A stretch of DNA of 59,473 nucleotides from an uncultured Enterobacteriaceae bacterium (lineage in GTDB: Bacteria > Pseudomonadota > Gammaproteobacteria > Eutrophobiales > Eutrophobiaceae): NCBI GenBank assembly GCA_964509455.1, contig CAZDXS010000157.1, forward strand, positions 1-59,473, in the 5' to 3' direction. Below, piece after piece: positions 29,234 through 43,677 of the stretch (the stretch's first letter is position 1; every line of letters starts with the position of its first letter). A program made the position numbers and the translations under genes. The notes under the pieces are model-generated. The model was given only the letters and a program-made list of their open reading frames with translations. It had not been told where the DNA came from and ran no database searches.

Positions 29234-30055
29234 CTAAATCGGCAATTGCTCCAGCCACGGGATGAAGTCGGGGTCGGGCTTCTCCTCGACGTGATGATTG
29301 TGCCAAAGCAGGGAGTTCCGTACGGCGGCGCGGCCGCTGTGGTTGCCCAGCCACTGCGGATAGGACGGCGGCGGCGCATCATGGTATGCCGACAGCAACG
29401 CGATGCTGTTGCGCTTCAGGTAGCCGCGCTTGCTGTCGGGCCCCGGCGCATCGTCAATGCCGACCACCGCGAAAGGCAACTTGCCGATGTACTCGGAGAC
29501 CAGGCGCTCCAGCGGTAACTCCCGCTCTTCCAGAACGGCGCGGTCCATGCCCAGCGCCCTGGCGGCGCTTCCCGGGTCTGATTTAACCCCCCAGGATTCT
29601 ACGCATTCGTGGTCGCCGCGCCCCATCAGTGCATCCCCCACCAGCAAGCGAAAAATGGAGCCTCGATGGTTGCCGCCGCCGGACCTGCGGCTCCCCCGAT
29701 GTTGCGACAGGCGGCCCCACAACGTGGACTTTGCGTCGGCTTTCAAGGCATGCGTTCCCACGCGCACAACGCGGGAGCAGTCCGGCTCCCAGAAGAAATA
29801 CACGCCGCGCCGCGGCAACCCCATTCCGCCGTCGGCATCCGCCAGGTAGCGATAACCGTACTGGGCCTCGACCAAGCGCTCCAGCCAGCGGTAGAACCGC
29901 TCCCGCCATTGGCGGAGTTGCTCCCGCTCAGTCGTCACGAGCGCGGGTGGTGCGACTGGTTTGCAACCAACCAAGCGTTTTAGCCATTGGCGGAACCGCT
30001 TCCACCATTGGCAACGTTGCTTCCGCCCAGTTGTCACTGGCGCGGGCGGCACCAC
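29234..30055 (-). CDS. GIY-YIG-like protein, paralogue 2 (E-to-K at the predicted metal ligand)
   Basis: GVYFFW...RVVRVG...LWGRLSQH; YLKRNSIALL; closely similar to the adjacent paralogue. Confidence 0.6.
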   Translation of the reverse strand: MVPPAPVTTGRKQRCQWWKRFRQWLKRLVGCKPVAPPALVTTEREQLRQWRERFYRWLERLVEAQYGYRYLADADGGMGLPRRGVYFFWEPDCSRVVRVGTHALKADAKSTLWGRLSQHRGSRRSGGGNHRGSIFRLLVGDALMGRGDHECVESWGVKSDPGSAARALGMDRAVLEERELPLERLVSEYIGKLPFAVVGIDDAPGPDSKRGYLKRNSIALLSAYHDAPPPSYPQWLGNHSGRAAVRNSLLWHNHHVEEKPDPDFIPWLEQLPI

Positions 30056-30109
30056 CTTGCTACGAGGTCTGACAACGGTTTTCGTCCTCGCACCCGAACT
30101 TCTTGTCGC

Positions 30110-30805
30110 TCATTGCTTGTCGCATTTAATCGGCAACCGCTCCAGCCACGGGATGAAGTCGGGGTCGGGAGTTTCATCGACGTGATTCTGGTTCCACAAC
30201 AACGAGCGCCGCACCGCACCGCGGTTGCTGTGGTTGCCCAGCCACTGCGGGTAGGACGGCGGCGGCTTATCGTGATATGCCGACAGCAACGCGATGCTGT
30301 TGCGCTCCAGGTAGCCGCGGTCGCTGTCCGGCCCCGGTGCATCATCAATACAGGCCACCGCGAAAGGCAACTTGCCAATGTACTCGGAGACCAGGCGTTC
30401 CAGCGGCAACTCCCCCTCAGTTAGCTCGGAGCGGTCCATGCCCAGCGCCCTGGCGGCGCTTCCCGGGCTTGATTTGTACCCCCAGGATTTCACCGGTTTG
30501 TGATCGCCGCACTTCATCAGCGCTTTCCCCACCAGCAACCGAAAGATGGAGCCGCGATGATTGCCGCCGCCGGATCCGAGGGTCCCCCGATGTTGCGACA
30601 GTCGCCCCCACAACGTGGACTTCGAGCCGGCTTTCAAGGCATGCGTTCCCACGCGCACGACGCGGGAACGGTCCGACTCCCAGAAGAAATACACGCCGCG
30701 CCGCGGCAACCCCGTCCCGCTGCCGGCATCCGCCAGGTAGCGATAGCCGCCCTGATTTGCTACCAGCAATTCCAGCCACTGGTAGAACCGCTCCCGCTCA
30801 GTCAT
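30110..30805 (-). CDS. GIY-YIG-like protein, paralogue 1
   Basis: GVYFFW...RVVRVG...LWGRLSQH; YLERNSIALL; LWNQNH; ATG overlaps the DUF6884 stop (ATGACTGA). Confidence 0.65.
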   Translation of the reverse strand: MTERERFYQWLELLVANQGGYRYLADAGSGTGLPRRGVYFFWESDRSRVVRVGTHALKAGSKSTLWGRLSQHRGTLGSGGGNHRGSIFRLLVGKALMKCGDHKPVKSWGYKSSPGSAARALGMDRSELTEGELPLERLVSEYIGKLPFAVACIDDAPGPDSDRGYLERNSIALLSAYHDKPPPSYPQWLGNHSNRGAVRRSLLWNQNHVDETPDPDFIPWLERLPIKCDKQ

Positions 30806-31244
30806 CCCGGGCGCGGGAGGCACAACAGTTTTGCAACCAGCTCAGTTGCTCCCCGATTCTCATCCCCTCCATCGGCACGTCCACCTCGTATCCGGCATCC
30901 TCCAACGGCGCCGCCAGGTTTTCGCGGTACCTGGCGCCCGCCAGGAAGACGAACCGGCAGGGATCCAGTTTCAGCAAGTCCTCAAGCACCGGGGCCGCCC
31001 AGTTCCGCCGCTCCCGTGCACCCATATTGTTCAGGGTTTTCTCGTACGGCTCGATCTCCTTTTCCGGGTCAACCAGCCCGTATTTCGCCGAGAGTATGAA
31101 CCAGGGGCATCCCTTGGCCTCCACGTAGCGCCGCGCCTTGAGGAACCAGTCGGATTGATACAAGTCCTTGGCTGCGCACGGGTAGCCCTGTTTTACCGAG
31201 ACGCAGGAAACCAAGTAAATAGTGTCGTCGTTATGTGCGTTCAT
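30798..31244 (-). CDS. DUF6884-like protein
   Basis: IYLVSCVSVK...AKDLYQSDWFLKARRY...WFILSAKYGL...IEPYEKTL...LAGARY...PMEGMRIGEQL; family name from memory. Confidence 0.7.
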   Translation of the reverse strand: MNAHNDDTIYLVSCVSVKQGYPCAAKDLYQSDWFLKARRYVEAKGCPWFILSAKYGLVDPEKEIEPYEKTLNNMGARERRNWAAPVLEDLLKLDPCRFVFLAGARYRENLAAPLEDAGYEVDVPMEGMRIGEQLSWLQNCCASRARDD

Positions 31245-31302
31245 CGTTCTTATTCTGTGATGGAAACGCAGGATGATACCACAGCAGGCAAATCATGGGG
31301 CG
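31238..31302. repeat. 65-bp direct repeat, copy 1 (extended -10, 5'UTR and ATG of the DUF6884-like gene)
   Basis: 64/65 identical to 38842-38906; contains TG-G-TATCAT on the minus strand. Confidence 0.95.
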
Positions 31303-31457
31303 CAACCGGGGGAGGGCGCTACCACCGCCGCCCACCATGCCACCGGGGGCAGAGAGCGGATGGTTCGGCGTTCCCGGCGCCGCGCGGGGGAAATCATAGG
31401 CGCAACCGAGGGCGTTGTTGCCGCCGCCCGCCGCGCCGCGTCATCACTACGGAGGCG

Positions 31458-34241
31458 TCACGTTTTGTCGCCGCCCGTGGTGAGGCGCTTATCCAGTTCC
31501 ACAAATTGCTGGAGCGTGCTAAAACCGCCGCGGTCGAAGTCGACCTGGTTCACTCGCAGGTAGCGCCAGGGGATGCCGATTTCCTTGCTCACCCGTTCGC
31601 ACCACTGCGCCATGGCGTTGTCCTTTGCTTCCGTTCCCTCCCAGACACGCCCTTTCGTCTCGATGATCCAGTTCACTTCGCCGGCATCGGTTTTTTGCAC
31701 CACCACCCAGTCCGGATAGTAGAAGCCAATGGCGCCGCTCGCTTTCAGGTAGTCCACTCGAAACTGGCTGCTGGAATCTCCTTGCTCGGTGGTGCCCAGC
31801 GCGGCGAAGCGCACCACGTCTTTTGCGATGTCCAGAAACTGGGCGAAGCGGCGCTCGAAGCCGTTGTAGGTCGCCACGTAGTTGAAGACCGTCTTCTTTG
31901 CTCGAGGCGGCGGCAGGTCGCGCCGCCAGAGGAACTTCTTGGTCTCGGAAAGATGGTGGTCCTCCTTGTCGAACTCAATGACGCGCCGCACGACCGTCAA
32001 CTCCGCGATTTTGCGCGCCAGGTACTTGGCGATGCCTTCCCGCAAAGGCAGGCGGTTGAGGTGCGAGCGCACCGCTTTAGCATTAATGTCGACTTCCCTG
32101 CCGAAACAACGCGTCGTCACGTAGTCCCGCACGATGGGGTATAGCTCTGCGAAGCGGTTAGGCAGTTTAGCCTCGCCGATGACCTTGTTGGTAATGCTTG
32201 CCAGCAACTCTTGGGCAAGGAGCAACTCGCCCTCGATGGGTTCTACGTGGATCTCGGTCTCCGTGGGGGCGAATTTTATCTTGAGCGTAACGCGGAATGG
32301 CTCGTCCAGCTCCTTCTGATCGTAGATCGCCTCCAACTCGTCGACGCGAAGTTCCGCCAGCTTGCGAATGTCGTACGCCAGGCTTGGCTTGGTGATTGGA
32401 ATGGCGATGTCGTACTTTATCTTCTCCTGCACAGGCTCGATGATGACCCCCACCGGTGGGTCGGTTTTGGTGACGGCTACGCCCACGCCCTCCGCCTCCA
32501 GTTGCTCGCGCAGAACCTTCAGCAGGTTGCGTGTGCCCAGAACTTCCAGGGTTTGCGTCCGGTCCTGGCTTACCCCAGCCATGAGGCGCAACCCCCTGCC
32601 GATGACCTGCTCCGGCAGGATCTCGGCCTTGGCGGTGAACGGGCGCAGACCCAGCACCACGGAGACGTTCCGCACGTCCCAGCCTTCGCGCAACATCATC
32701 ACGCTGACGATTGCCTTGATGTTGCTCTCTGCCGCGTCGATGTCGCGCGCCGCCGCCCGGGCCTTGTCCAGGTCTTTCTTGGTGATCTCGCCCGCCGTGT
32801 CCGTGTGAATCACCAGCACTTCATCTTGCTTGAAGCCGAACTCTTTGGTTTGCCGCAGGTAGTTGCCGATGGCGTCCGCATAGACGTTTTTCTCGGTCAT
32901 GATGAACAGCACCGGGCGCGTGTTGAGTTTTTTGTAGGTCTCATGATGCACTTTCCAGCGTAGCACCGCGGCCTGCAACCAGTAACCGTACTTCTCGACG
33001 ACATTTTCCTTGGTGATGCCGTCGGGATCTTCCTGGGGTTGCTTAGGATCGTCCTCCTTGGTGACGATGAGCGGCGCCTTGACGATGCGGTCTTCCACCG
33101 CTTGGGCAAGAGGGTAGTCGCATACCGTCCAGGGGAAGTACATCCCGTTCTGATCTTTCGGCGTGGCGGAAAAGTCCAACCACATTGCGAGCCCCTGCGG
33201 CAACGCGTCGTGAATGGCGAGCAGGGATCGACTCCATTGCAGATCCTCGTCGTGAACATGGTGGGCCTCGTCATTCAGCACCACCAGATCGTTTAGCGAC
33301 TTCATCCTTTCCAGCATCGAGCGTTGACCTGAAGATGCCAGGTCTTTCGCCGGCGGGCCCAGTAGCGCATCGATGGGGTTGGCGGGCATCCACTCCTTGT
33401 CCCGCGACTCGTAAAGTTGCTGGATGTTGGTGAGAAAGAGGTTGCCCGAGGCGGCGGGATCCGCGGCATCGCCGCGCAGGATTACGTTCTGGCTGAAAGC
33501 CCCTTTCCACTCCGGCGGGACCAGCGGTAGCCTGTGAAAGATGCTGTTGTCCCTGAAGTCCTTTTCCAGCCGCTGGTAAACAATTACGTTGGGCGCGACA
33601 ATCAAGAAATTGGTCGAGAGCCCCGAGTCCGCCACTTGTTGTTTGTGAAGCCGGGCCCAGACAATGGCCATGGCCATGACCCAGGTCTTGCCCGAGCCGG
33701 TCGCCATCTTGAATGCGAAGCGGCGCAGATCCTCCGGCGGGAGATCCTGCACTCCATCATTATTCAGCTCGGGAACGTAGCGGCGCAATTGCCGTCGGCC
33801 ATCCATGGTGGTTTGGAACTCGATGTCGTCGGCTAGCAGGTCTTTTTTGAACTTGCTTGCATACTTCTTGATCAAGTCCTGTACATCGCGTTGCCCGGCG
33901 ATCTCCACCCGCCACACCAGCGTCTCGATGGCTTCGCGCTGGCAGAAGTGATAGCGGAACGTGTCATCAAACCCCGGGACTTCATGGTCCTCCTCGAACC
34001 AGTACCCGAAAAGGCGCCGCGTCACGGCGGAGGCGCCGGCGTAGCCCCCCTCCCGCCACGCATCCACAGCAGTACGGATCTTCGGCACCAGCAACCGCTG
34101 GCTGTCGCGCCGGCCGGCTTCCACCCGCCAGCCGGTAGCGGCCGCCTCGTCTTTCACCAAGTGGGAAGTGGGCTTTTCCCATGGGCAACGGCCCGGAATT
34201 TCCGGCAGGTCTTTGTCGTAGGCGATGACGGATTTTGCCAT
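31458..34241 (-). CDS. res: Type III restriction enzyme Res subunit
   Basis: FKMATGSGKT, NDEAHH, FSATP, MLREGWD, EQVIGRGLR; C-terminal YPDW...IETKG nuclease. Confidence 0.92.
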   Translation of the reverse strand: MAKSVIAYDKDLPEIPGRCPWEKPTSHLVKDEAAATGWRVEAGRRDSQRLLVPKIRTAVDAWREGGYAGASAVTRRLFGYWFEEDHEVPGFDDTFRYHFCQREAIETLVWRVEIAGQRDVQDLIKKYASKFKKDLLADDIEFQTTMDGRRQLRRYVPELNNDGVQDLPPEDLRRFAFKMATGSGKTWVMAMAIVWARLHKQQVADSGLSTNFLIVAPNVIVYQRLEKDFRDNSIFHRLPLVPPEWKGAFSQNVILRGDAADPAASGNLFLTNIQQLYESRDKEWMPANPIDALLGPPAKDLASSGQRSMLERMKSLNDLVVLNDEAHHVHDEDLQWSRSLLAIHDALPQGLAMWLDFSATPKDQNGMYFPWTVCDYPLAQAVEDRIVKAPLIVTKEDDPKQPQEDPDGITKENVVEKYGYWLQAAVLRWKVHHETYKKLNTRPVLFIMTEKNVYADAIGNYLRQTKEFGFKQDEVLVIHTDTAGEITKKDLDKARAAARDIDAAESNIKAIVSVMMLREGWDVRNVSVVLGLRPFTAKAEILPEQVIGRGLRLMAGVSQDRTQTLEVLGTRNLLKVLREQLEAEGVGVAVTKTDPPVGVIIEPVQEKIKYDIAIPITKPSLAYDIRKLAELRVDELEAIYDQKELDEPFRVTLKIKFAPTETEIHVEPIEGELLLAQELLASITNKVIGEAKLPNRFAELYPIVRDYVTTRCFGREVDINAKAVRSHLNRLPLREGIAKYLARKIAELTVVRRVIEFDKEDHHLSETKKFLWRRDLPPPRAKKTVFNYVATYNGFERRFAQFLDIAKDVVRFAALGTTEQGDSSSQFRVDYLKASGAIGFYYPDWVVVQKTDAGEVNWIIETKGRVWEGTEAKDNAMAQWCERVSKEIGIPWRYLRVNQVDFDRGGFSTLQQFVELDKRLTTGGDKT

Positions 34242-34243
34242 GA

Positions 34244-36107
34244 CTATTTCACCTCCACGGCGAACACCTGCGAGGTGTCATTGCCGAAAATGTCAATCAC
34301 CTTGACGAGGATGCGGTACTTGCCCGGCTTCTCGTAGGCATGCGGGTCGGAGACCAGCGGCAGTTGGCGCTCCTTGCGCGTGCGGTACGCCACCCAGCCT
34401 TGCATGAAAGTATCGTTGCGGAAGTCCCAGTCCACCGCCCAGTAGTCGATGTAGTCCGACGACTCCTGCACCTTGTCGCGCACGTCCTCCGGAATCAGCT
34501 CGGTGTTGGGGATGACGAAATTTTTCAGCGCCACCTGCGCGGTAAGTTTCTCCGGTTGCTTGATCTTGGCTTCCAGATACGCCAGCTGGAAAAAGTGTAC
34601 GTCGCCCTGTGCCACGGCCTGCTCCTCTATCGCCTCTCGAGGAATCTGCAAGAGCAGAAGATTCACGCCTCGGTTTCCTGCCTCTGACACCATCAGGTTT
34701 CCGTTAAGGCCCATCTCCCACTCCCAGCCAAGTACGTGCAACTCGTCCTGCTTGAGCTTCACGCATTCATCCACCGCGGCATCGATATCGTTTATGGTTA
34801 CTGGCGCTTCTACCGCGCCGATGCGGACTAGGGCCTTGCCTTTCCTGCCGTGCAGGTGCGTCATGTCTGCCAGCGGCTGGGCGCCGTAAAGATTGAGAAT
34901 GAAAGCCAGGTACTCGTAGAGCGCCTGCTCCGTGAGCGGCCTGCCTTGCGCTTCGCCGAAAGTCACATCCTGCCAGTGTTGGTGCTCGTACTTGCCGAGA
35001 TTGAGGATCTCGAAAGGTTTGCAGTTCTCGATGCCGAGCAAGCGCTTGCGGGTGACATGAGTGCCCCAGCGCCCCAGGTCGCAACCAATCCAACGACGGC
35101 CCAGCTTCTCGGCGACAGCGAGGGTGGTGCCGGAGCCGCAGAAAAAGTCGGCGACTAGGTCGCCCTCGTTGGAAGATGCCTTGATGATGCGTTCCAACAA
35201 GGCCTCGGGCTTTTGGGTGGGGTAGCCAACTCGCTCGCTACTCATCGGTTGATTCTGCATAGAATTTATATCTGCCCAGACCGTAGAAACCGCTTTGCCT
35301 TCGGTTAAATAGCGGCGGCGGCCAGCAAGAACATAATACTGTCTCCCATTCTCGTCCACTTGATCGTGTTTATCGACCCACTCTTGCGAATGCGGAACAA
35401 GTTGTTTGTTGAATACTGGACTACCTTTGTGGTAGTAAAACAAAACATCGTGATTCCTAATCCACTTATCTGCCCTGGCTTTATAGCCACTAACTGCTTC
35501 GCCCATCCGCCAAATTATCTCATTTCTAAAATTATCTTTCCCAAAAACTTCATCCATCAACAACCGAACGAAGCTATTCACACGCCAATCGCAATGTACG
35601 TAAATACTGCCGTTATCAGCGAGCAAGTCGCGCATCAAGACGAGGCGCTCCCAGATCATCGCGACATAACTGTCCACCCCCTTACTCCAAGTGTCGCGAT
35701 ACGCCTTTTCCTCGATAACAGATTGCTCCTTTTCGACCTCGAGGCTATCTTCACCAATCTGCGCCTTAAAGGAAAAATCCGCCCCTGTCGCAAACGGCGG
35801 GTCAATGTAGATGAGGTCAATTTTACCCGCCAATCTCTCCAGCAAAGACCCCATCACCAGCAAGTTGTCGCCCCATATCAGCTTGTTTTGCCAGCCATTT
35901 TCGGGGTTGCCCCCCCCAGGTTTTAAATAACGTGTCTTGTGGGCCGAGTCGTCCTTTATGAGCCTCGCGCGTGGCGCGGGTCTCGTTCACGGCCTCGATG
36001 ACCTGGAACGGCAGGTTGACGCGCGGCACCTCCTTGAGTGCGCCATTCTCGTCGTACTTGCCCGGCCACACCAGTTCGGTTTTTTCTACGGCGTTGATTG
36101 TTGTCAT
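34244..36107 (-). CDS. mod: Type III Mod (beta-class N6-adenine MTase), copy A; frameshifted at a G8 tract (G7 or G10 restores the frame, ~620 aa)
   Basis: ELVWPGK N-terminus in one frame, NKLIWGDN-IDPPF-TRD-DFFCGSGTT in another; junction is the homopolymer at 35910-35917. Confidence 0.9.
35910..35917 (-). repeat. Poly-G(8) tract in mod copy A
   Basis: C8 on the plus strand at the frameshift point. Confidence 0.9.
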
Positions 36108-36270
36108 GGTCTCTGATGTCTTGTATGGGTTCGCAATTGCTTGGGATTGTAACACAGGTTCGCCTCTCCCTGTTAGTGGGAATACAACTCCCCGCCAGGG
36201 TCTATGGGAAGCCAAGGGCGCATCGCCCAAGCCGCTCCCGGCGCGATGGCGATGACGGACCCCGGCATGG

Positions 36271-38141
36271 CTACTTCACCTCCACGTCGAAGACCTGCGA
36301 GGTGTCGTTGCCGAAAATGTCAATCACCTTGACGAGGATGCGGTACTTGCCCGGCTTCTCGTAGGCATGCAGGTCGGAGACCAGCGGCAGATTGCGCTCC
36401 TTGCGCGTGCGGTATGTCACCCAGCCCTGCATGAAAGTGTCGTTGCGGAAGTCCCAGTCCACCGCCCAGTAGTCGATGTAGTCCGACGACTTCTGCACCT
36501 TGTCGCGCACGCTCTCCGGAAGCAGCCCGGTGTCAGGGATGACGAACTCTTTCAGCGCCACTTGTACAGTGAGTTCCTTCGGGCGCTTGATCTCGGCTTC
36601 CAGATACGCCAGCTCGAAGAAACGCACGTCGCCCTTGGCCACGGCCTGCTCCTCCATCACCTCGCGAGGGATCCGCAAGAGTTGGAGCTTTACGCCTTTT
36701 TGCTTCGCCAGCCCCACCACCAGTTTGTTGAGTCCCATCTCCCATTCCCAGCCGAGCACGTGCAACTCGCCCTGCTTGATCTTCACGCACTCTTCTACCG
36801 CGGCATCGATCTCGTCTATCGTTACCGGGGCATCTACGGCGCCGATGTGAACCATCGCCTTGCCTTGCTTGCCGTGCAGGTGCGCCATGCCCGCCAGCGG
36901 TTGGGCGCCGTAAAGCTTCAGAATGAAAGCCAAGTACTCGTAGAGGGCCCGCTCGGTGAGCGGCTTGTCCTGCGCCTCACCGAAAGTCACGCCTTGCCAG
37001 TACTGGCGTTCGTACTTTCCGAGGTTTAGCACTTCGAATGGATTGCAGTTATCGATGCCGAGCAAGCGCTTGCGGCTGACGTGGATGCCCCAGCGTCCCA
37101 GGTCGCAACCGATCCAGCAGCGGCCCAACTTTTCGGCAACGGCAAGGGTGGTACCGGAACCGCAGAAAAAGTCAGCGACCAGATCTCCCTCATTAGACGA
37201 TGTCCGAATGATTCTCCTGAGGATGCTTTCGTTTTTCTGGGTATCGTATCCTGTCTTCTCCTGCGAGAAGCTTTTGATCTGAATCGAATCAAGTGAATCT
37301 TCCCCCCTGAGCTCGAACTCGAACGAGTTAGCATTCCATACGTCCTCTATGGGATAGCCCTTGCCTTCTGTCTCACCGCCCCTTCGTTCGTAGCCAGAGG
37401 GGTACGGAACGTACTCTTTATTAAACGTGAAATCATCAGGCGCCTTAACATAGAAGAGAATCGTGTCGTGATTCCGAATCCAGTTCTTTGCGGCGCTCTT
37501 GTAGCCTGAAATCCAGCCGATTCGCCAGACGACCTCCCGCTGGAATGAGTCGATGCCAAAAATTTCGTCCATCAAGGACTTAACGTAGTGGCCGACCGTG
37601 GCATCCAGATGAACATAAATTGAACCTCGCGGGCTCAAGAGAGAACGCATAAGGGTGAGGCGATCCCGGATCATCTCCAGATAGCCGGCAAGGCCGCTCC
37701 CCCAGGTGTCGTGATACGCTTTTTCCTCGATAACAGATCGCTCTTTCTTTAACTCGGGGCCCTTTTCGCCAACCTGCGTTTTGAATGAAAAATCCGCCCC
37801 CGTCGCAAACGGCGGGTCAATGTAAATGAGGTCAATTTTCCCCGCCAACTTCTCTAGCAACGACCCCATCACCAGCAGATTGTCGCCCCAGATTAGCTTG
37901 TTGCGCCAACTCTCCGCCTCGACGCTGTCGCTTTCGGGCGCACCCCCCCCCCCCAGATTTTGTAGAACGTGTCTTGTGGGCCGAGCCGTCCCTTATTCGC
38001 CTCCCGCGTGGCGCGGCTCTCGTTCACGGTCTCGATGACCTGGAACGGCAGGCTGACGCACGGCGTCTCCTTGAGACGGCCGTCCTCGTCGTACTTGCCC
38101 GGCCATACCAGTTCGGTCTTGGTTATGTCGATTTTCGCCAT
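36271..38141 (-). CDS. mod: Type III Mod, copy B with a different TRD; frameshifted at a G12 tract (G13 or G10 restores the frame, ~623 aa)
   Basis: MAKIDITKTELVWPGK N-terminus out of frame with NKLIWGDN-IDPPF-TRD-DFFCGSGTT; junction is the homopolymer at 37943-37954. Confidence 0.9.
37943..37954 (-). repeat. Poly-G(12) tract in mod copy B
   Basis: C12 on the plus strand at the position homologous to the G8 tract of copy A. Confidence 0.92.
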
Positions 38142-38155
38142 GTGCTTCGGAGTGC

Positions 38156-38848
38156 TTACAACAGCCCGGCTTTGCGGAAACTGAAAGTCTCTTGTTGCGA
38201 CACAATCAGGTGGTCCAGGATGCGCAGGTCGACGGTTTCCGCGGCTAGGACGACGGCGCGCGTGGTCACCTTGTCCTGCTCGCTGGGCTGGACGTTGCCG
38301 TTCGGATGATTGTGGGCAAGTACCAGGGCCGCCGCCCGGCGCCGTAGCGCTGCCTCGACCACGCGGCGCGGATACACGGCGGCGCGATTGACCGTGCCTT
38401 CCTGCAAGGTCTCCACGCCGTCGCGGAGCAGTCGGCAACCGGAGTCCAGGTACGCCACGGCAAACACCTCGTGCTGGAGCATGCCGATTTTGGCGCGCCA
38501 GAAATCACTGAGCCGGCCGGGGTCGAGCAACACCTCCCCTTCCTCGGACGCCTGTTGCAGGTAGAGCGTTGCCGCGGCGCGAACGGCCTGCAGGTTGACG
38601 GCGGCCACTTCGCCCACGCCCTTGACCGACTGGAGTTCCGCCAGGGGCGCATCGAGGATGCCGCGCAGGCTGCCGAAACGCGCCAGCAGGGCCTTGGCGG
38701 CCGGCTTGGTGTCTTTTCGGGGGATGGCCAGGGTCAGGAGCATCTCGATGACCTCGTACTCCGCAAATCCCGCCAATCCTCCCTTGCGGAAGCGCTCGCG
38801 CAGTCGCCGGCGGTGCTGTACGTAGTGCGGCTGTTCCTGTCCGTTCAT
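38156..38848 (-). CDS. radC: RadC-family JAB/MPN domain protein
   Basis: HRRRLRERF, LLTLAIPRKDTKP, GTVNRAAVYPRRV, HNHPNG...PSEQD, ILDHLIV. Confidence 0.93.
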   Translation of the reverse strand: MNGQEQPHYVQHRRRLRERFRKGGLAGFAEYEVIEMLLTLAIPRKDTKPAAKALLARFGSLRGILDAPLAELQSVKGVGEVAAVNLQAVRAAATLYLQQASEEGEVLLDPGRLSDFWRAKIGMLQHEVFAVAYLDSGCRLLRDGVETLQEGTVNRAAVYPRRVVEAALRRRAAALVLAHNHPNGNVQPSEQDKVTTRAVVLAAETVDLRILDHLIVSQQETFSFRKAGLL

Positions 38849-38906
38849 CGTTTTTATTCTGTGATGGAAACGCAGGATGATACCACAGCAGGCAAATCAT
38901 GGGGCG
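38842..38906. repeat. 65-bp direct repeat, copy 2 (extended -10, 5'UTR and ATG of radC)
   Basis: 64/65 identical to 31238-31302. Confidence 0.95.
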
Positions 38907-39016
38907 GTGCGCTGACGCCCCGGCTTTCCCAGTGCCGCATGGGCGCCGCCGCACGTGTCGGACAGGGACAGCGTCCTCTCGCCGGCGTCTCCGCCGTAAC
39001 ACCTGCACGGCGCCGC

Positions 39017-42000
39017 CTAATCCAGCGCCGCCGCGTCCGCCGGCGCGCCCGCCGCCCGGCCGGTCAGCCGCAGGCGCAGGTCAAACACCAGGCTCAGCAT
39101 GGCGGGCACCACAAACAAGGTGAGCAAGGTGGCGAGCAGCAGGCCGCCAATCACCACGCCGCCTATGCCCCGGTACAACTCCGAGCCGGCGCCGGGGGCC
39201 AGGACCAGGGGCAGCATGGCGAACGTGGAGGTGCCGGCGCTCATGAAGATGGGGCGAATGCGGTTGCGCACCGCCTCCCGAATGGCCGCGCGCGGCGCCA
39301 TGCCCTCCTTGCGGGCGTGATTCAGGGACTGGTGCACGATGAGGATGGGGTTGTTGACCACCGTCCCCAGCAGGATGATGAAGCCCAGCATCGTCAGGGC
39401 GTCCAGGGGTTGATAGGCCAGGGTCGCGTTGACCAGGGCCAGCCCTAAGAAGCCGCCCAACACGGCCAACGGTACGCTGAGCAGGATGACCACGGGATAG
39501 AGAAAGCTTTCAAACAGCGCGGCCATGAGCAGGAAGGTAATGAGCAGGGCCAGCAACAGGTTCCATTTCAGCGCCGCGCCCGCCGCCGCCAGCTTGTCGG
39601 CGCTGCCGCTCAGCTCCACCCGGTACAGCCCGCCGAACTTCCCCTGGTCTTTCATGGGAGCGATGAGGTCCCGCTGAATGATTTCAATGGCCGTTTCCGT
39701 CGGCATTTCCGCAACGGGCAGGACGCGAATGGTGATGGTGCGCTCCCGTTCCCGGTGGTTGATTTGCACCGGCCCGGCGGCCGGCGACACCCGGGCGATG
39801 GCGCCCAGGGTGACCAGGCGCCCGTCCGGCGTGGCGATGGGCATCTGTTCCAGGGTATGGGTGCTGTGGGCGAAGTTTTTCTCGGCGCGCACCCGGATGT
39901 CCAGCTCCCGCCCCTCGTGCTGGTAGTCGCTGACCTTGACGCCGTCCACTAGGGCGCTCACCGCAAAGCCCAGGTCGCGGTTGGAGACGCCCAGCTCCGC
40001 CGCCCGCCGCCGGTCAATTTCCACCCGCACCTCCGGGTTGCCCAGGTCCAGCCCCGGTATGGGGAAGGCCTGGGCGCCGGGCATGGCCGCGCCCACCGCC
40101 TGGAATATTTCCGCCCCCAGGGCGATGAGGCGGGACAGGTCCGGCCCCTTGATTTCAATGTCAATGCTGCGCCCCTCGCCGCTTTCATCCTCGAAGATGC
40201 CCCATTGTTGCAATATGGGGATGGCGCCGGGAACGCCCGCCATGGTTTCATACAGCAACGGCATCAGCTCGCGGGTGCGGCGCGGCTCGTTGACGGTGGC
40301 GCCCAGGAACAGGATGGGGCCCTGGAAGCCAAAAAAGAACGTGTCCAGCCCGCCGCCGGGCTGCGCCGCGGCCGCCGGCGAGTTGCGGGGGTGGGTCTTG
40401 AGTTCTTTCAGGGCGTGGTAAAACCGCTGGTGAATGTCGGCCCGCTCTGCCACCGTGTACCCCGGCGGCGGCAGGATCAGGCCGAACAGGAAGTCGGTGT
40501 CGCCCATGGGTAGGTACTCCGTCTTGGGCATGATGGCGATGCTGACGCTGACCGCCAGCGCCATCGCCGCGCCCACGACAACCAGCCGCCGCGCTATCGA
40601 GGCGTTGATCCAGTCTGCCAGGGTCACGATGCGCTCCCGCGCCGCCAGCGCCAGGGCGGCTCCGCCCCAGATCCCGTGAAAGCCGCCGGCCCTGACAATG
40701 CCTCCAGCGATGGCGTTTCCAGCAATACCTCCGCCGCTTCCCTCGCCGCCGGCGCCGCCGGCAACACCTCCACCGCCGCCGGTATCTTTCTCGCCGCCAG
40801 TGCCCTCGGCAATGCCCCCGGTGTCGGTAATGGCACCGCCGCCGGCACCGCCCGCGTCGGCTCCGCCGGCGATGGCGCCCGCGCCCCCACCAGCGCCGCC
40901 CCCCAACATGCGCGCCGCCATGGTGGGAATCACGGTGACGGCCGCCAGCAGACTGAGGGCGACGGCGCAACTGATGGCCACGGCAATGTCGGCGAACAGC
41001 CTGCCGATTTCCTCCTCGATCAAGACCACCGGAGCGAACACGGCCACCGTGGTCAGGGTGCTGGCCAGCACCGCCCCCCACACTTCCGTCACGCCGTCCT
41101 GGGCGGCCCGCAACCGGGACTTGCCGCCTTGCCGGTGGCGGTAGATGTTCTCCAGCACCACGATGGAGTTGTCCACCACCATGCCGGTGGCAAAAGCGAG
41201 GCCGGCCAGGCTGATCACGTTAATGGTGCTGCCGAACACCGCCATCATCAAGAACGTGCCGATGATGCTGATGGGAATGGCGAGGGCGGCGATCAAGGTG
41301 CTGGCGGCGCTGCGCAGGAACACCAGCAACACCAGCACCGCCAGTGCCCCGCCCAACAACAGGTTGTTGCGAACCAGCTTCACGGCGCTCTTGATGTAGC
41401 CGGTCTGCTCCCATGCCAGGACCAGGCGCAAGCCGCGCGGCTCCAGCAACTCCTCGTTGATGCGCGCCGCTTTTTCCGTCACCGCCGCCATGATGTCCAG
41501 CTCGTTGGCGCCCGGCTCGCGCTGTATGTTCAGGGCGATGGTGCGGTCGCGCAGGGTGAACAGGGCGCTGGTGGGTTTTTCGTGGGTCAGCTCCACCCGG
41601 GCCACGTCCCGCAGATAGACGGGCACGCCGTTGCGGCTGGCAATCACGATGTTTTCCAGGTCCTGCGGCGACCGGTACTCGCCCACGGTGCGCACCACGT
41701 AGCGGCGCTTGCCTTCGTCAAAATCACCGCCGCTGTAGTTGCGGTTCTCCCGCTCAACAGCGGCGGCGAATTCCAGCAGCGTCACCTGCCGCAAGGCCAG
41801 CCTGGCCGGGTCGACGACGACGTGCACCTCCGCCTCGCGCCCGCCGTACACGTAGGACGCCGACACGCCCTCCACCCGCTCCAGCTCGGGCACCACGTAG
41901 TCGTCGATGAAGTCGTACACGGTGGAAATGTCGCCGGCGAAGCCGTTGTCCGGGGTCGGGTCCAGCTGAAACCAGGCGATGGCGCCGGAAATGCCCGACT

Positions 42001-42388
42001 GCCCCGAGATCACCGGCTTTTTGGCGTTCGCCGGGTACGATTCCACCTGGTCCAGGCGGTTCGACGCCTTGAGGCGGGCGGCGTCCTTGTCGGTCCCCAC
42101 CTGGAAGCGCAAGGTGATTTCGCCGTAGCCGTCGTGGCTTTCGCTTTCCATTTTCACCAGTCCCGGCAGTGACTTGAGCTCCTCTTCTTGCTCGTTGATG
42201 ACGTCTTGTTCAATTTCCAGGGGGCTGGCGCCGGGCCATTCGGTGGTCACCGTGATTTCCGGCTTGACCACGTCCGGGGTCAGCTGCACGGGCAGGTTGA
42301 ACAGGGCAATGAGACCGAACAGCGCCAGGAAGATGACCCCCACCGAGGTGGAGACCGGGTAGCGAATGCAGGCCTGTATGAGGTTCAC
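39017..42388 (-). CDS. RND efflux transporter permease (AcrB/AcrD/AcrF family) with Gly-rich insert
   Basis: NLPVQLTPDV, SLAGLAFATGMVVDNSIVVLENI, RIRPIFMS; GTG at 42388 overlaps the MFP stop. Confidence 0.93.
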   Translation of the reverse strand: MNLIQACIRYPVSTSVGVIFLALFGLIALFNLPVQLTPDVVKPEITVTTEWPGASPLEIEQDVINEQEEELKSLPGLVKMESESHDGYGEITLRFQVGTDKDAARLKASNRLDQVESYPANAKKPVISGQSGISGAIAWFQLDPTPDNGFAGDISTVYDFIDDYVVPELERVEGVSASYVYGGREAEVHVVVDPARLALRQVTLLEFAAAVERENRNYSGGDFDEGKRRYVVRTVGEYRSPQDLENIVIASRNGVPVYLRDVARVELTHEKPTSALFTLRDRTIALNIQREPGANELDIMAAVTEKAARINEELLEPRGLRLVLAWEQTGYIKSAVKLVRNNLLLGGALAVLVLLVFLRSAASTLIAALAIPISIIGTFLMMAVFGSTINVISLAGLAFATGMVVDNSIVVLENIYRHRQGGKSRLRAAQDGVTEVWGAVLASTLTTVAVFAPVVLIEEEIGRLFADIAVAISCAVALSLLAAVTVIPTMAARMLGGGAGGGAGAIAGGADAGGAGGGAITDTGGIAEGTGGEKDTGGGGGVAGGAGGEGSGGGIAGNAIAGGIVRAGGFHGIWGGAALALAARERIVTLADWINASIARRLVVVGAAMALAVSVSIAIMPKTEYLPMGDTDFLFGLILPPPGYTVAERADIHQRFYHALKELKTHPRNSPAAAAQPGGGLDTFFFGFQGPILFLGATVNEPRRTRELMPLLYETMAGVPGAIPILQQWGIFEDESGEGRSIDIEIKGPDLSRLIALGAEIFQAVGAAMPGAQAFPIPGLDLGNPEVRVEIDRRRAAELGVSNRDLGFAVSALVDGVKVSDYQHEGRELDIRVRAEKNFAHSTHTLEQMPIATPDGRLVTLGAIARVSPAAGPVQINHRERERTITIRVLPVAEMPTETAIEIIQRDLIAPMKDQGKFGGLYRVELSGSADKLAAAGAALKWNLLLALLITFLLMAALFESFLYPVVILLSVPLAVLGGFLGLALVNATLAYQPLDALTMLGFIILLGTVVNNPILIVHQSLNHARKEGMAPRAAIREAVRNRIRPIFMSAGTSTFAMLPLVLAPGAGSELYRGIGGVVIGGLLLATLLTLFVVPAMLSLVFDLRLRLTGRAAGAPADAAALD

Positions 42389-43677
42389 GGCAGGGGGTAG
42401 GACAACGGCTCGCCGCGCACCGGTTGCCCCGGGCGCAGGCGCTCGTTGCCGCGCGTGATGACCCGGGCGCCGGGGGCGATGTCGCCCTCCACCACGGACC
42501 ATACGCCCATGGCCGCTGTTGTCGTCACCGGCGCCGCCACGGCGGTTGAGTCTTCTCCCACCAGGTATACCAGGTCGTTGCCGCCTTGTTGCACAACGGC
42601 GTCCTTGGGCACCAGCACGCCGGACGCGGCGCGGCGCAACGGAAACGCGGCGCGGGCCAGCATGCCCGCCCCGATGCCGGCGCCGGGGTTTTCCAGGCGC
42701 AGCTTCACCGGAAAGGTGCGGGCCTGCGGGTCGGCGCGCGGCACCACCGCGCGAATGGTCGCCGCGTACTCCTTGCCCGGCAACGAGTCGAAAGCAACGG
42801 CGGCCGCGGCGCCCGGCGCCAGGTCGCCGAAGTATTTTTCCGGCACGTCAACGTGGACTTCCAGCGTTTCCGTGGACAGGATCTCCAGCGCCTCATCGCC
42901 CACGCCGCTCCATTGCCCCACCTCGGTGTGGCGGGCGACCACCACGCCGTTGAAGGGCGCGTGAATGACGCTGCGCTCCAAGTCAAAGCGGATGCCGGCG
43001 ATTTCCGCGCGCAGGCTTTCAATGTTCCACTGCCAGGCGGCGAATTCGTATTGCGCCTCGTCCATCACCTGTTGCGAGATGGTGTTCTCCTCGATCAACT
43101 GCCGCGAGCGTTCCAGCCTTTTTTCCGCCAGGTTTTTGCGGGCCTGCGCCTCTTTCAGGCGCGCCTGCGCCGCTTTCAGGCGCAGCTCCAGCGCCGTGGT
43201 GCGCAACCTCACCAGGGGTTGACCCTGGGTGACCCGGTCTCCCTCCCGCGCTTCCAGCGCCACCACCAGCCCCGCCGTTTCGCCGGCCAGCATGCTGACG
43301 TAAGGCGCTTCTACGTAGCCCGGCAGTTTTACAAGTTGCTCGACCGGCCGCGCCACGGCCTCGGTGTATTTCACCGGGGCTGCCGGCGGCGCCGGGTCCT
43401 GGGCGTGCGTTGCCGCGCTGAAACAGCACAGGCAGGCGGCCGCCAGCGCCGCGCGCCCGCGTTGCTGGAAGATGCCGGCCCGGCGGCAGCCGGATTGCCG
43501 TTGCCCGCTCACGGGGCGGGCATGCGACCTAGGCGGTTGCGCCGCGTTGCCCGGTGCGCCCGTTGCGGCGCCGACCCGGGCCGGGGGTCGTGCGGCGGTT
43601 GCCGGGGACGCCCGTCCGCGGAATGAGGGGTTGCCGCGGGCACGTTCAGCCCGGCCCAGAGGCCGCGCGTCCGGCAA
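42385..43677 (-). CDS. RND periplasmic adaptor (membrane fusion protein); true start uncertain, probably downstream of 43677
   Basis: EGDRVTQGQPLV, IHAPFNGVV, PRADPQARTFPVK, GMLA, VPKDAV. Confidence 0.88.
   Translation of the reverse strand: MPDARPLGRAERARGNPSFRGRASPATAARPPARVGAATGAPGNAAQPPRSHARPVSGQRQSGCRRAGIFQQRGRAALAAACLCCFSAATHAQDPAPPAAPVKYTEAVARPVEQLVKLPGYVEAPYVSMLAGETAGLVVALEAREGDRVTQGQPLVRLRTTALELRLKAAQARLKEAQARKNLAEKRLERSRQLIEENTISQQVMDEAQYEFAAWQWNIESLRAEIAGIRFDLERSVIHAPFNGVVVARHTEVGQWSGVGDEALEILSTETLEVHVDVPEKYFGDLAPGAAAAVAFDSLPGKEYAATIRAVVPRADPQARTFPVKLRLENPGAGIGAGMLARAAFPLRRAASGVLVPKDAVVQQGGNDLVYLVGEDSTAVAAPVTTTAAMGVWSVVEGDIAPGARVITRGNERLRPGQPVRGEPLSYPLP

What the first reader, a model, noticed from the sequence alone, without database searches (positions are those of the whole stretch)
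31238..38906. 65-bp promoter-plus-start-codon direct repeat brackets the 7.6-kb radC-mod-mod-res block
Seen: 64/65 identical copies 7604 bp apart, each with TG-G-TATCAT, the 5'UTR and ATGAACG of the following gene. Inference: recombination between them would excise the whole type III block as a circle and leave the DUF6884 operon correctly promoted; the reverse event explains its insertion or amplification. This is an integrase-free, promoter-anchored cassette mechanism.
Basis: partly seen in the sequence, partly recalled or inferred. Interest (0 to 1): 0.68.

Follow-up and report, generated by a model that had tools for sequence, protein, structure and literature searches.

The report
Duplicated promoter flanking a restriction-modification block
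A 7.6-kb type III restriction-modification block in a phage-defence island lies between two near-identical 65-base copies of the neighbouring defence operon's promoter and start codon; restriction genes flanked by a long duplicated target are already described, so this is a clear but fairly ordinary new example.

Summary
Window 31238-31302 and 38842-38906 match at 64/65 bases (67/69 if extended), 7604 bp apart. They are the only two copies in the 2.78-Mb genome. Each ends in the ATGAACG start of a minus-strand gene: radC and the DUF6884 gene (PDC-M57A).

The element (P) belongs to the PDC-M57 operon. A close relative's contig (L051; acrB 91% nt) has acrB, an unrelated 372-aa gene, one P, then DUF6884 and M57B, with no type III block.

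radC is the first gene of this type III module family in six other loci, and none has P upstream. Homology to the nearest radC relative starts 2 nt before the ATG. The P-radC joint is therefore a 9-nt microhomology (CGATGAACG), which points to illegitimate recombination.

No recombinase gene lies in the ~31-kb island. No further copy of P was found anywhere searched.

This fits "insertion with long target duplication" of restriction-modification units (Furuta et al. 2010), including their invade-amplify-release idea. One misfit: the ancestral left flank sits at the downstream copy.

Verdict: new member of a known kind, modest interest.

The parts
38842..38906 (-). Copy A of element P (65 nt): extended -10-like TGGTATCAT (TATCAT at 38882-38877), short leader, and the ATGAACG start of radC.
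   Evidence: Identity is 64/65 to copy B and 59/65 to the single copy in relative L051.
31238..31302 (-). Copy B of element P, in its ancestral place in front of the DUF6884 / PDC-M57 operon (TATCAT at 31278-31273; ATG at 31244).
   Evidence: Identity is 60/65 to L051. Homology to L051 runs from 31311 through the operon at 87% nt.
38842..38850 (-). 9-nt microhomology CGATGAACG at the joint between P and the radC module.
   Evidence: homology to the nearest radC relative (L052, 87% nt) begins at 38850. Homology to P of L051 and copy B ends at 38842.
31388..31433 (-). Degenerate third partial copy: copy B's left flank plus the first ~16 nt of P.
   Evidence: local alignment score 34, against 16.0 +/- 2.5 in 2000 shuffles (maximum 28; none reached 34).
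31303..31457 (-). 155-nt spacer between the res stop and copy B. Only its last 9 nt (31303-31311) are shared with L051.
38907..39016 (-). Spacer between the acrB stop and copy A. The first 36 nt (39016-38981) are shared with L051. The remaining 74 nt (38980-38907) are unique.
   Evidence: homology to L051 ends at 38981.
38156..38848 (-). radC (RadC-like JAB domain), first gene of the type III module. It is not the housekeeping radC of the genus.
   Evidence: PF04002, 4e-35; the genus-wide radC is elsewhere, at 34% identity; radC leads mod-res in six other loci.
36271..38141 (-). mod1, a type III methyltransferase with a G12 tract (37943-37954). It is out of frame as assembled; G10 or G13 gives a full-length open frame.
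34244..36107 (-). mod2, a tandem paralogue with a G8 tract (35910-35917). It is out of frame as assembled; G7 or G10 gives a full-length open frame. The central recognition domain differs from mod1 (17-45% identity over aa ~200-320).
31458..34241 (-). res, the type III restriction subunit (927 aa).
   Evidence: the nearest homologues are 78% identical and occur across many phyla.
30798..31244 (-). DUF6884 protein = PDC-M57A, first gene of the target operon.
   Evidence: PF21818, 2e-49. (PDC-M57A, 1e-41).
29234..30823 (-). Two tandem PDC-M57B paralogues (30823-30110 and 30055-29234), 79% identical to each other.
39017..42502 (-). AcrB-family RND transporter: the conserved core gene that bounds the island.
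   Evidence: 80-83% nt in 22 species of the genus. (91% nt to L051).

Best explanation
P is the native promoter, leader and start-codon region of the PDC-M57 candidate defence operon (DUF6884 gene plus GIY-YIG-like genes). In this lineage that operon lies next to acrB.

The slot between acrB and that operon turns over. Here it holds a horizontally acquired type III restriction-modification module (radC-mod-mod-res). The module's own upstream region has been replaced by a second copy of P. That copy is joined to radC at a 9-nt microhomology (CGATGAACG) shared by the natural starts of radC and the DUF6884 gene.

The joint was made by illegitimate, microhomology-guided recombination, not by a site-specific enzyme. 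Possible routes are an unequal exchange or template switch between the two gene starts 7.6 kb apart, or the unknown process behind 'insertion with long target duplication' of R-M units.

Consequences:
- The incoming R-M operon is transcribed and translated from the same signals as its neighbour (promoter capture), while the neighbour keeps its own start.
- The two 65-nt direct repeats (53 nt exact) are a passive substrate for RecA-type deletion or tandem amplification of the block.

Shown: the repeat and its uniqueness, P native to PDC-M57, a relative without the block, and the microhomology joint.
Inferred: promoter activity, the recombination route, and any excision or amplification.
For: - The repeat is real and has two copies only.
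- L051 carries acrB (91% nt), then a 1.26-kb unrelated reverse gene, then a single P and DUF6884-M57B at 87% nt. Homology resumes at 31311, 9 nt upstream of copy B.
- radC heads the same module family in L048, L049, L053, L054, L141 and L142, with no P upstream of radC in the three loci read at sequence level (L048, L049, L053) and no P hit in L054 (blastn); L141 and L142 were seen only as gene lists. The nearest radC (L052) also starts ATGAACGGAC, and its homology to the window begins at 38850.
- No P exists in 60 relatives or in the genome and metagenome collections.
- No integrase or transposase domain was found among the island ORFs scanned.
- The block has lower GC than the core flank.
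- The literature describes R-M units flanked by repeats longer than 30 bp that duplicate a target and often span a translation start, including type III cases. It also reports amplification through such repeats (PMC2853133).
Against: - Promoter activity is not shown. The generic sigma-70 scan does not call it.
- Only one relative carries P, and it is not a clean empty site. The polarity of events therefore rests on 9 shared nucleotides and on gene order.
- A simple one-step target duplication predicts the ancestral left flank at copy A, but it is at copy B. Extra steps, or a copy-paste route, are needed.
- The degenerate third partial copy hints at more than one event at this spot.
- No reads were available to confirm the assembly across a 53-nt exact repeat.
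Confidence: 0.6

Rival explanations
1. Classical one-step 'insertion with long target duplication'. The type III unit entered at the start of the DUF6884 gene, and 65 bp of target were copied to both ends in the same event, as described for R-M units in Helicobacter, Haemophilus, Campylobacter and others.
For: - It meets the published criteria: R and M genes inside, insert under 20 kb, direct repeats over 30 bp, repeats unique in the genome, no mobility gene, and both repeats align to a single copy in a related genome (criteria in PMC2853133).
- The repeat spans a translation start, as that paper notes for many cases.
Against: - The 9 nt to the left of P that are shared with L051 lie at copy B, not copy A. 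In a simple target duplication the upstream copy should keep the native left flank.
- The relative's slot holds another gene, so there is no clean empty site.
- A degenerate third partial copy exists.
Confidence: 0.2
2. One reading: P is a working recombination anchor of an integrase-free cassette system. The block excises as a 7.6-kb circle, leaving a promoted DUF6884 operon, and re-enters or amplifies through P. Other defence cassettes use the same anchor.
For: - The repeats are in direct orientation and have a 53-nt exact core.
- A relative has a single P and no block.
- A third partial P copy lies upstream of copy B.
- There is no recombinase gene nearby.
- Amplification through flanking repeats is documented for an R-M unit, and release is hypothesised (PMC2853133).
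Against: - There are only two copies in the genome, and none before any other defence gene of this 31-kb island.
- No P was found in the collections.
- radC modules elsewhere lack P.
- The joint is a microhomology, not a conserved site.
- The relative's alternative slot content is not flanked by P.
- An excised circle would have no replicon.
Confidence: 0.1
3. Assembly artefact. In a metagenome-assembled genome, a 53-nt exact repeat let the assembler thread a separate molecule or a strain variant into the chromosome. The tandem arrangement would then not exist as drawn.
For: - The genome is a 270-contig MAG.
- The exact core of 53 nt is close to common k-mer sizes.
- Reads could not be inspected.
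Against: - Both junction contexts are biologically coherent. The outer flanks (acrB and PDC-M57) are neighbours in the independent contig L051.
- The copies differ by one base and have distinct flanks.
- The block's genes are co-oriented with both flanks.
Confidence: 0.05

Closest known systems
Insertion with long target duplication of restriction-modification gene units (Nobusato et al. 2000, as cited in Furuta, Abe & Kobayashi, Nucleic Acids Res 2010, PMC2853133)
   Same: - R and M genes with no mobility gene.
- Flanked by direct repeats well over 30 bp that are unique in the genome and align to one copy in a related genome.
- The repeat spans a translation start, so the target gene stays intact.
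- Type III examples are known.
- The same authors proposed invasion, amplification through the repeats, and release.
   Different: - The native left flank is at the downstream copy.
- The related genome has another gene in the slot instead of a clean empty site.
- The insert's left end coincides exactly with the radC start codon through a 9-nt microhomology, so the duplicated target also becomes the promoter, leader and start of the incoming operon.
- The target is itself a candidate defence operon inside a defence island.
Promoter capture by duplication (for example the rnk-citT junction in the E. coli long-term evolution experiment; from my own knowledge, not checked here)
   Same: A rearrangement places a copy of a neighbouring promoter in front of another gene, giving direct repeats and a new expression state.
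   Different: In that case the whole segment is tandemly duplicated and the captured gene was silent. Here only 65 nt are repeated, 7.6 kb apart, and the expression change is inferred.
Defence-island hotspots between conserved core genes, with turnover by recombination
   Same: - A ~31-kb integrase-free stack of defence systems lies between core genes (recN side and acrB).
- The content next to acrB differs between close relatives.
   Different: Hotspot turnover is usually explained by homologous recombination in the core flanks. It does not by itself create an internal duplicated promoter.
Integron cassettes
   Same: Promoter-proximal stacking of defence-type genes, with excision as circles proposed.
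   Different: There is no integrase and no attC-like site. Only two repeats are present and the joint is a microhomology. Not a member.

Membership tests
R-M insertion with long target duplication (Furuta et al. 2010 criteria) | The inserted segment contains both R and M gene homologues | tested here: met
   res (PF04851, REase_III) and two MTase_III genes lie between the repeats.
R-M insertion with long target duplication (Furuta et al. 2010 criteria) | Insert shorter than 20 kb and direct repeats longer than 30 bp | tested here: met
   Spacing is 7604 bp. The repeat is 65 nt at 64/65.
R-M insertion with long target duplication (Furuta et al. 2010 criteria) | Repeats are low-copy in the genome and no mobility gene is linked | tested here: met
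   Two copies only in G000. No integrase, transposase or resolvase domain among the island ORFs scanned.
R-M insertion with long target duplication (Furuta et al. 2010 criteria) | Both repeats align to a single target copy in a related genome that lacks the R-M genes | tested here: met
   L051 has one copy (59/65 to A, 60/65 to B) and no type III genes between acrB and DUF6884.
R-M insertion with long target duplication (Furuta et al. 2010 criteria) | Clean empty site: the flanks outside the two repeats are contiguous around the single target in the related genome | tested here: not met
   The right flank is contiguous. On the left, L051 has a 1259-nt unrelated segment, and its 9 nt abutting P match the flank of copy B, not copy A.
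Site-specific integrative element or integron cassette | A recombinase gene and a conserved attachment site shared by several units | tested here: not met
   No recombinase domain was found. The repeat occurs twice only. The joint is a microhomology with the radC start.
Type III restriction-modification system | A Mod methyltransferase (N6_N4_Mtase with a variable central domain) followed by a Res helicase-nuclease | tested here: met
   MTase_III scores 6e-119 and 6e-116. Res matches ResIII plus an endonuclease domain. Both mod genes are frameshifted at poly-G tracts as assembled.
Sigma-70 promoter (for element P) | -35 and -10 hexamers at 16-18 nt spacing, or an extended -10 (TGnTATAAT), plus demonstrated transcription | tested here: inconclusive
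   TGGTATCAT fits an extended -10 at 8 of 9 positions. There is no -35, so the scan does not call it. No transcript data were available.

The most novel reading that the evidence does not exclude
P is more than a scar. It is a recurrent landing pad at which this lineage gains, amplifies and sheds whole defence modules without any recombinase, through short-homology recombination at a promoter and start-codon element. Every module that lands is expressed at once, and its loss restores the neighbour exactly.

The degenerate third partial copy would be a remnant of an earlier cycle. The similar promoter-duplicating defence insertions noted elsewhere in this scan would be the same process.
Probability: 0.1. 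Interest if true: 0.7.

Novelty: new member of a known kind. Interest (0 to 1): 0.3.

Why it matters
How restriction-modification and other defence genes move without their own recombinases is still unresolved. "Insertion with long target duplication" has been catalogued since 2000, but its mechanism is unknown.

This case adds a well-resolved joint. The incoming module's first codon is fused to the target's promoter and start through a 9-nt microhomology. That points to microhomology-guided joining or template switching. It also shows how such an insertion can give the newcomer ready-made expression signals while sparing the target operon.

It further gives a concrete 65-nt substrate on which deletion and amplification rates could be measured. 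Taken alone it is one more example. It matters mainly as part of the growing set of defence blocks bracketed by duplicated host promoters.

Tried and rejected
- Dispersed repeat or MITE family: rejected, because there are only two copies in the genome.
- Known RNA element or structured leader: no Rfam match. The fold z-score is -0.14.
- P native to the radC module: rejected. The nearest radC relative and six other module loci lack it.
- P unusually conserved relative to the coding sequence, which would suggest a regulatory element: rejected. The whole operon is 87% identical to L051, against 92% over 76 nt at P.
- Templated 'filler' DNA in the spacer (a 23-nt exact match to contig C252): rejected as background. 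Exact 20-mers recur about every 1.5 kb in this GC-rich genome.
- Searches for more carriers of P, with exact and degenerate patterns in genome and metagenome collections: none found.
- Synteny in 12 species of the genus: acrB is followed by an orphan methylase, rimK and hslVU. There is nothing from the island, so these species give no empty site.
- Closer relatives of res: none above 78% identity.
Full report
**Observation**

The repeat finder reports 31234-31302 and 38838-38906 as a 69-nt direct repeat at 97%, spaced 7604 bp apart.

A 31-mer from the core occurs exactly twice in the window, against 0.00 expected from shuffles. A search of the window's whole assembly (2.78 Mb, 270 contigs) finds only these two copies.

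The genes lie on the minus strand. Read that way, each copy is CGCCCCATGATTTGCCTGCTG-TG-G-TATCAT, then 28 nt, then ATGAACG. The ATG is the start of radC (38848-38156) in copy A. In copy B it is the start of a DUF6884 gene (31244-30798).

**Anatomy**

Going downstream on the minus strand, the order is:
- An AcrB-family RND transporter (42502-39017).
- A 110-nt spacer.
- Copy A.
- radC.
- Two tandem type III mod genes.
- res (34241-31458).
- A 155-nt spacer.
- Copy B.
- DUF6884 (PADLOC PDC-M57A).
- Two PDC-M57B paralogues.

Further on, the opposite strand carries RhuM, Gabija, and a type I R-M system with several modules inserted in it. These extend as far as recN, nadK, hrcA and grpE. The setting is therefore a ~31-kb defence island between core genes.

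No integrase, transposase or resolvase domain was found among the ORFs scanned. GC falls from about 0.68 in the core flank to 0.54-0.62 in the block.

**Where P belongs**

The closest DUF6884 homologue in the large protein collection (72% aa) lies on a 5.1-kb contig, L051. That contig is from a close relative. Its first 2.6 kb are the acrB orthologue at 91% nt.

Its order is acrB, then a 1259-nt segment with an unrelated 372-aa gene on the other strand, then a single copy of P, then DUF6884 and M57B. The homology has these limits:
- It is continuous at 87% nt from window 31311 to 30140.
- L051's copy of P matches copy A at 59/65 and copy B at 60/65.
- On the acrB side it ends 36 nt after the acrB stop (38981).
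- It resumes 9 nt upstream of copy B.

P is therefore part of the PDC-M57 operon, and PDC-M57 beside acrB predates the split of the two lineages. The space between them is a variable slot.

**Where the block belongs**

The radC here is not the housekeeping radC of the genus, which lies elsewhere at 34% identity. Homologues of this radC head a radC-(helicase-nuclease)-mod-res module in two species of the genus (L048, L049) and in unrelated metagenomic contexts (L053, L054, L141, L142). All of these have a single mod. No P-like sequence lies upstream of radC in L048, L049 or L053, where the sequence was read, and blastn with P found no hit in L054. L141 and L142 were seen only as gene lists.

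The nearest relative (L052; 90% aa, 87% nt) also starts ATGAACGGAC. Its homology to the window begins at 38850, 2 nt before the ATG. Homology of copy A to P ends at 38842. The joint is thus a 9-nt overlap, CGATGAACG, present natively at both gene starts. Microhomology of this kind is typical of illegitimate recombination, not of a site-specific reaction.

**Polarity and route**

Copy B has both ancestral flanks: the 9 nt shared with L051 on its left and the operon on its right. Copy A has neither. A one-step target duplication predicts the ancestral left flank at copy A, so that model does not fit as it stands.

The alternatives are:
- An unequal exchange between the two gene starts followed by a deletion.
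- A double template switch.
- Acquisition, by flank recombination, of a slot allele in which the joint already existed.

I cannot decide among them.

A degenerate third partial copy lies 96 nt upstream of copy B, at 31388-31433. It comprises copy B's left flank plus the first ~16 nt of P. It is significant against shuffles: score 34 against 16.0 +/- 2.5, with 0 of 2000 shuffles reaching it. It shows that this spot has been rearranged more than once.

A 23-nt exact match of the spacer to another contig turned out to be background for this GC-rich genome.

**What it does**

P has an extended -10-like motif but no -35, and the generic scan does not call it. It matches no Rfam family and has no unusual fold. 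Its function as promoter, leader and start is inferred from the motif, from its position before two verified gene starts, and from its conservation before DUF6884 in L051.

If it is active, the acquired R-M operon and PDC-M57 share expression signals. The direct repeats would allow homologous deletion, which would restore acrB-spacer-P-DUF6884, or tandem amplification.

Only one related contig carries P, and no strain-level relatives exist in the collections.

**Comparison with what is known**

Furuta, Abe and Kobayashi (2010, PMC2853133) describe R-M units of types I to IV inserted "with long target duplication". The main points are these:
- The units are flanked by direct repeats over 30 bp that are unique in the genome, without mobility genes.
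- The repeats align to a single copy in an empty-site genome.
- The repeats often span a translation start or stop, which spares the target gene.
- The list includes type III cases in Campylobacter.
- The authors hypothesise a cycle of invasion, amplification through the repeats (for which they cite direct evidence) and release.

The present case meets four of the five criteria I could list. It fails the clean-empty-site criterion.

Its particular features are the start-codon microhomology, which makes the duplicated target the newcomer's promoter, and the fact that the target is another defence operon. Earlier notes of this scan list several other defence blocks bracketed by duplicated host promoters or gene starts. 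I used them only as a pointer to the literature.

**Verdict**

This is a new member of a known kind, with modest interest (0.3).

I put the bolder reading at about 0.1. In it, P is a recurrent recombinase-free landing pad for defence modules.

Noticed in passing
window 34244-38141 (poly-G tracts at 37943-37954 and 35910-35917): The two tandem type III mod genes each carry a homopolymeric G tract at the same N-terminal position, G12 and G8. Both are out of frame as assembled. G10 or G13 (mod1) and G7 or G10 (mod2) give full-length open frames of 620-623 aa. The two proteins differ mainly in the central recognition domain. This looks like two independently phase-variable Mod specificities sharing one Res. 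All six related modules examined have a single mod.
   Followed up: partly
window 29234-30823: PDC-M57B is tandemly duplicated. The paralogues are 79% aa identical and spaced 891 bp apart. The relative's contig L051 ends inside its first M57B, so whether the duplication is shared is unknown. With the mod pair and P, this makes three separate duplications within 10 kb.
   Followed up: partly
L050 (G015:C1, about 3916600-3916870): In one species of the genus, a 3' fragment of this accessory radC abuts a C-terminal fragment of res. This is a remnant of the same module with mod and most of res deleted.
   Followed up: no
L027, L031, L033 and other loci: In the 12 species of the genus whose region downstream of acrB was examined, seven show a match to the methylase motif (PF01555 in L027) on the strand opposite to acrB within about 2.3 kb of its end. 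rimK, an ATP-grasp gene, hslVU, ubiE and ubiB follow. None of the window's ~31-kb island is present, so this genome is rearranged at that point.
   Followed up: partly
L053 9399-9806 and L054 15522-15929: In the two closest complete modules, a PIN-domain gene overlaps the res stop. In the window that position is taken by the 155-nt spacer and copy B.
   Followed up: no
window 8233-29049: The island between recN and acrB stacks these systems with no recombinase gene detected: type I R-M (hsdM, hsdS, hsdR) interrupted by Schlafen/AlbA, Fic, DUF3644 and DUF4145 genes, a patatin gene and a ClpP/SDH-type protease, followed by Gabija (GajA, GajB) and RhuM/PDC-S05.
   Followed up: partly
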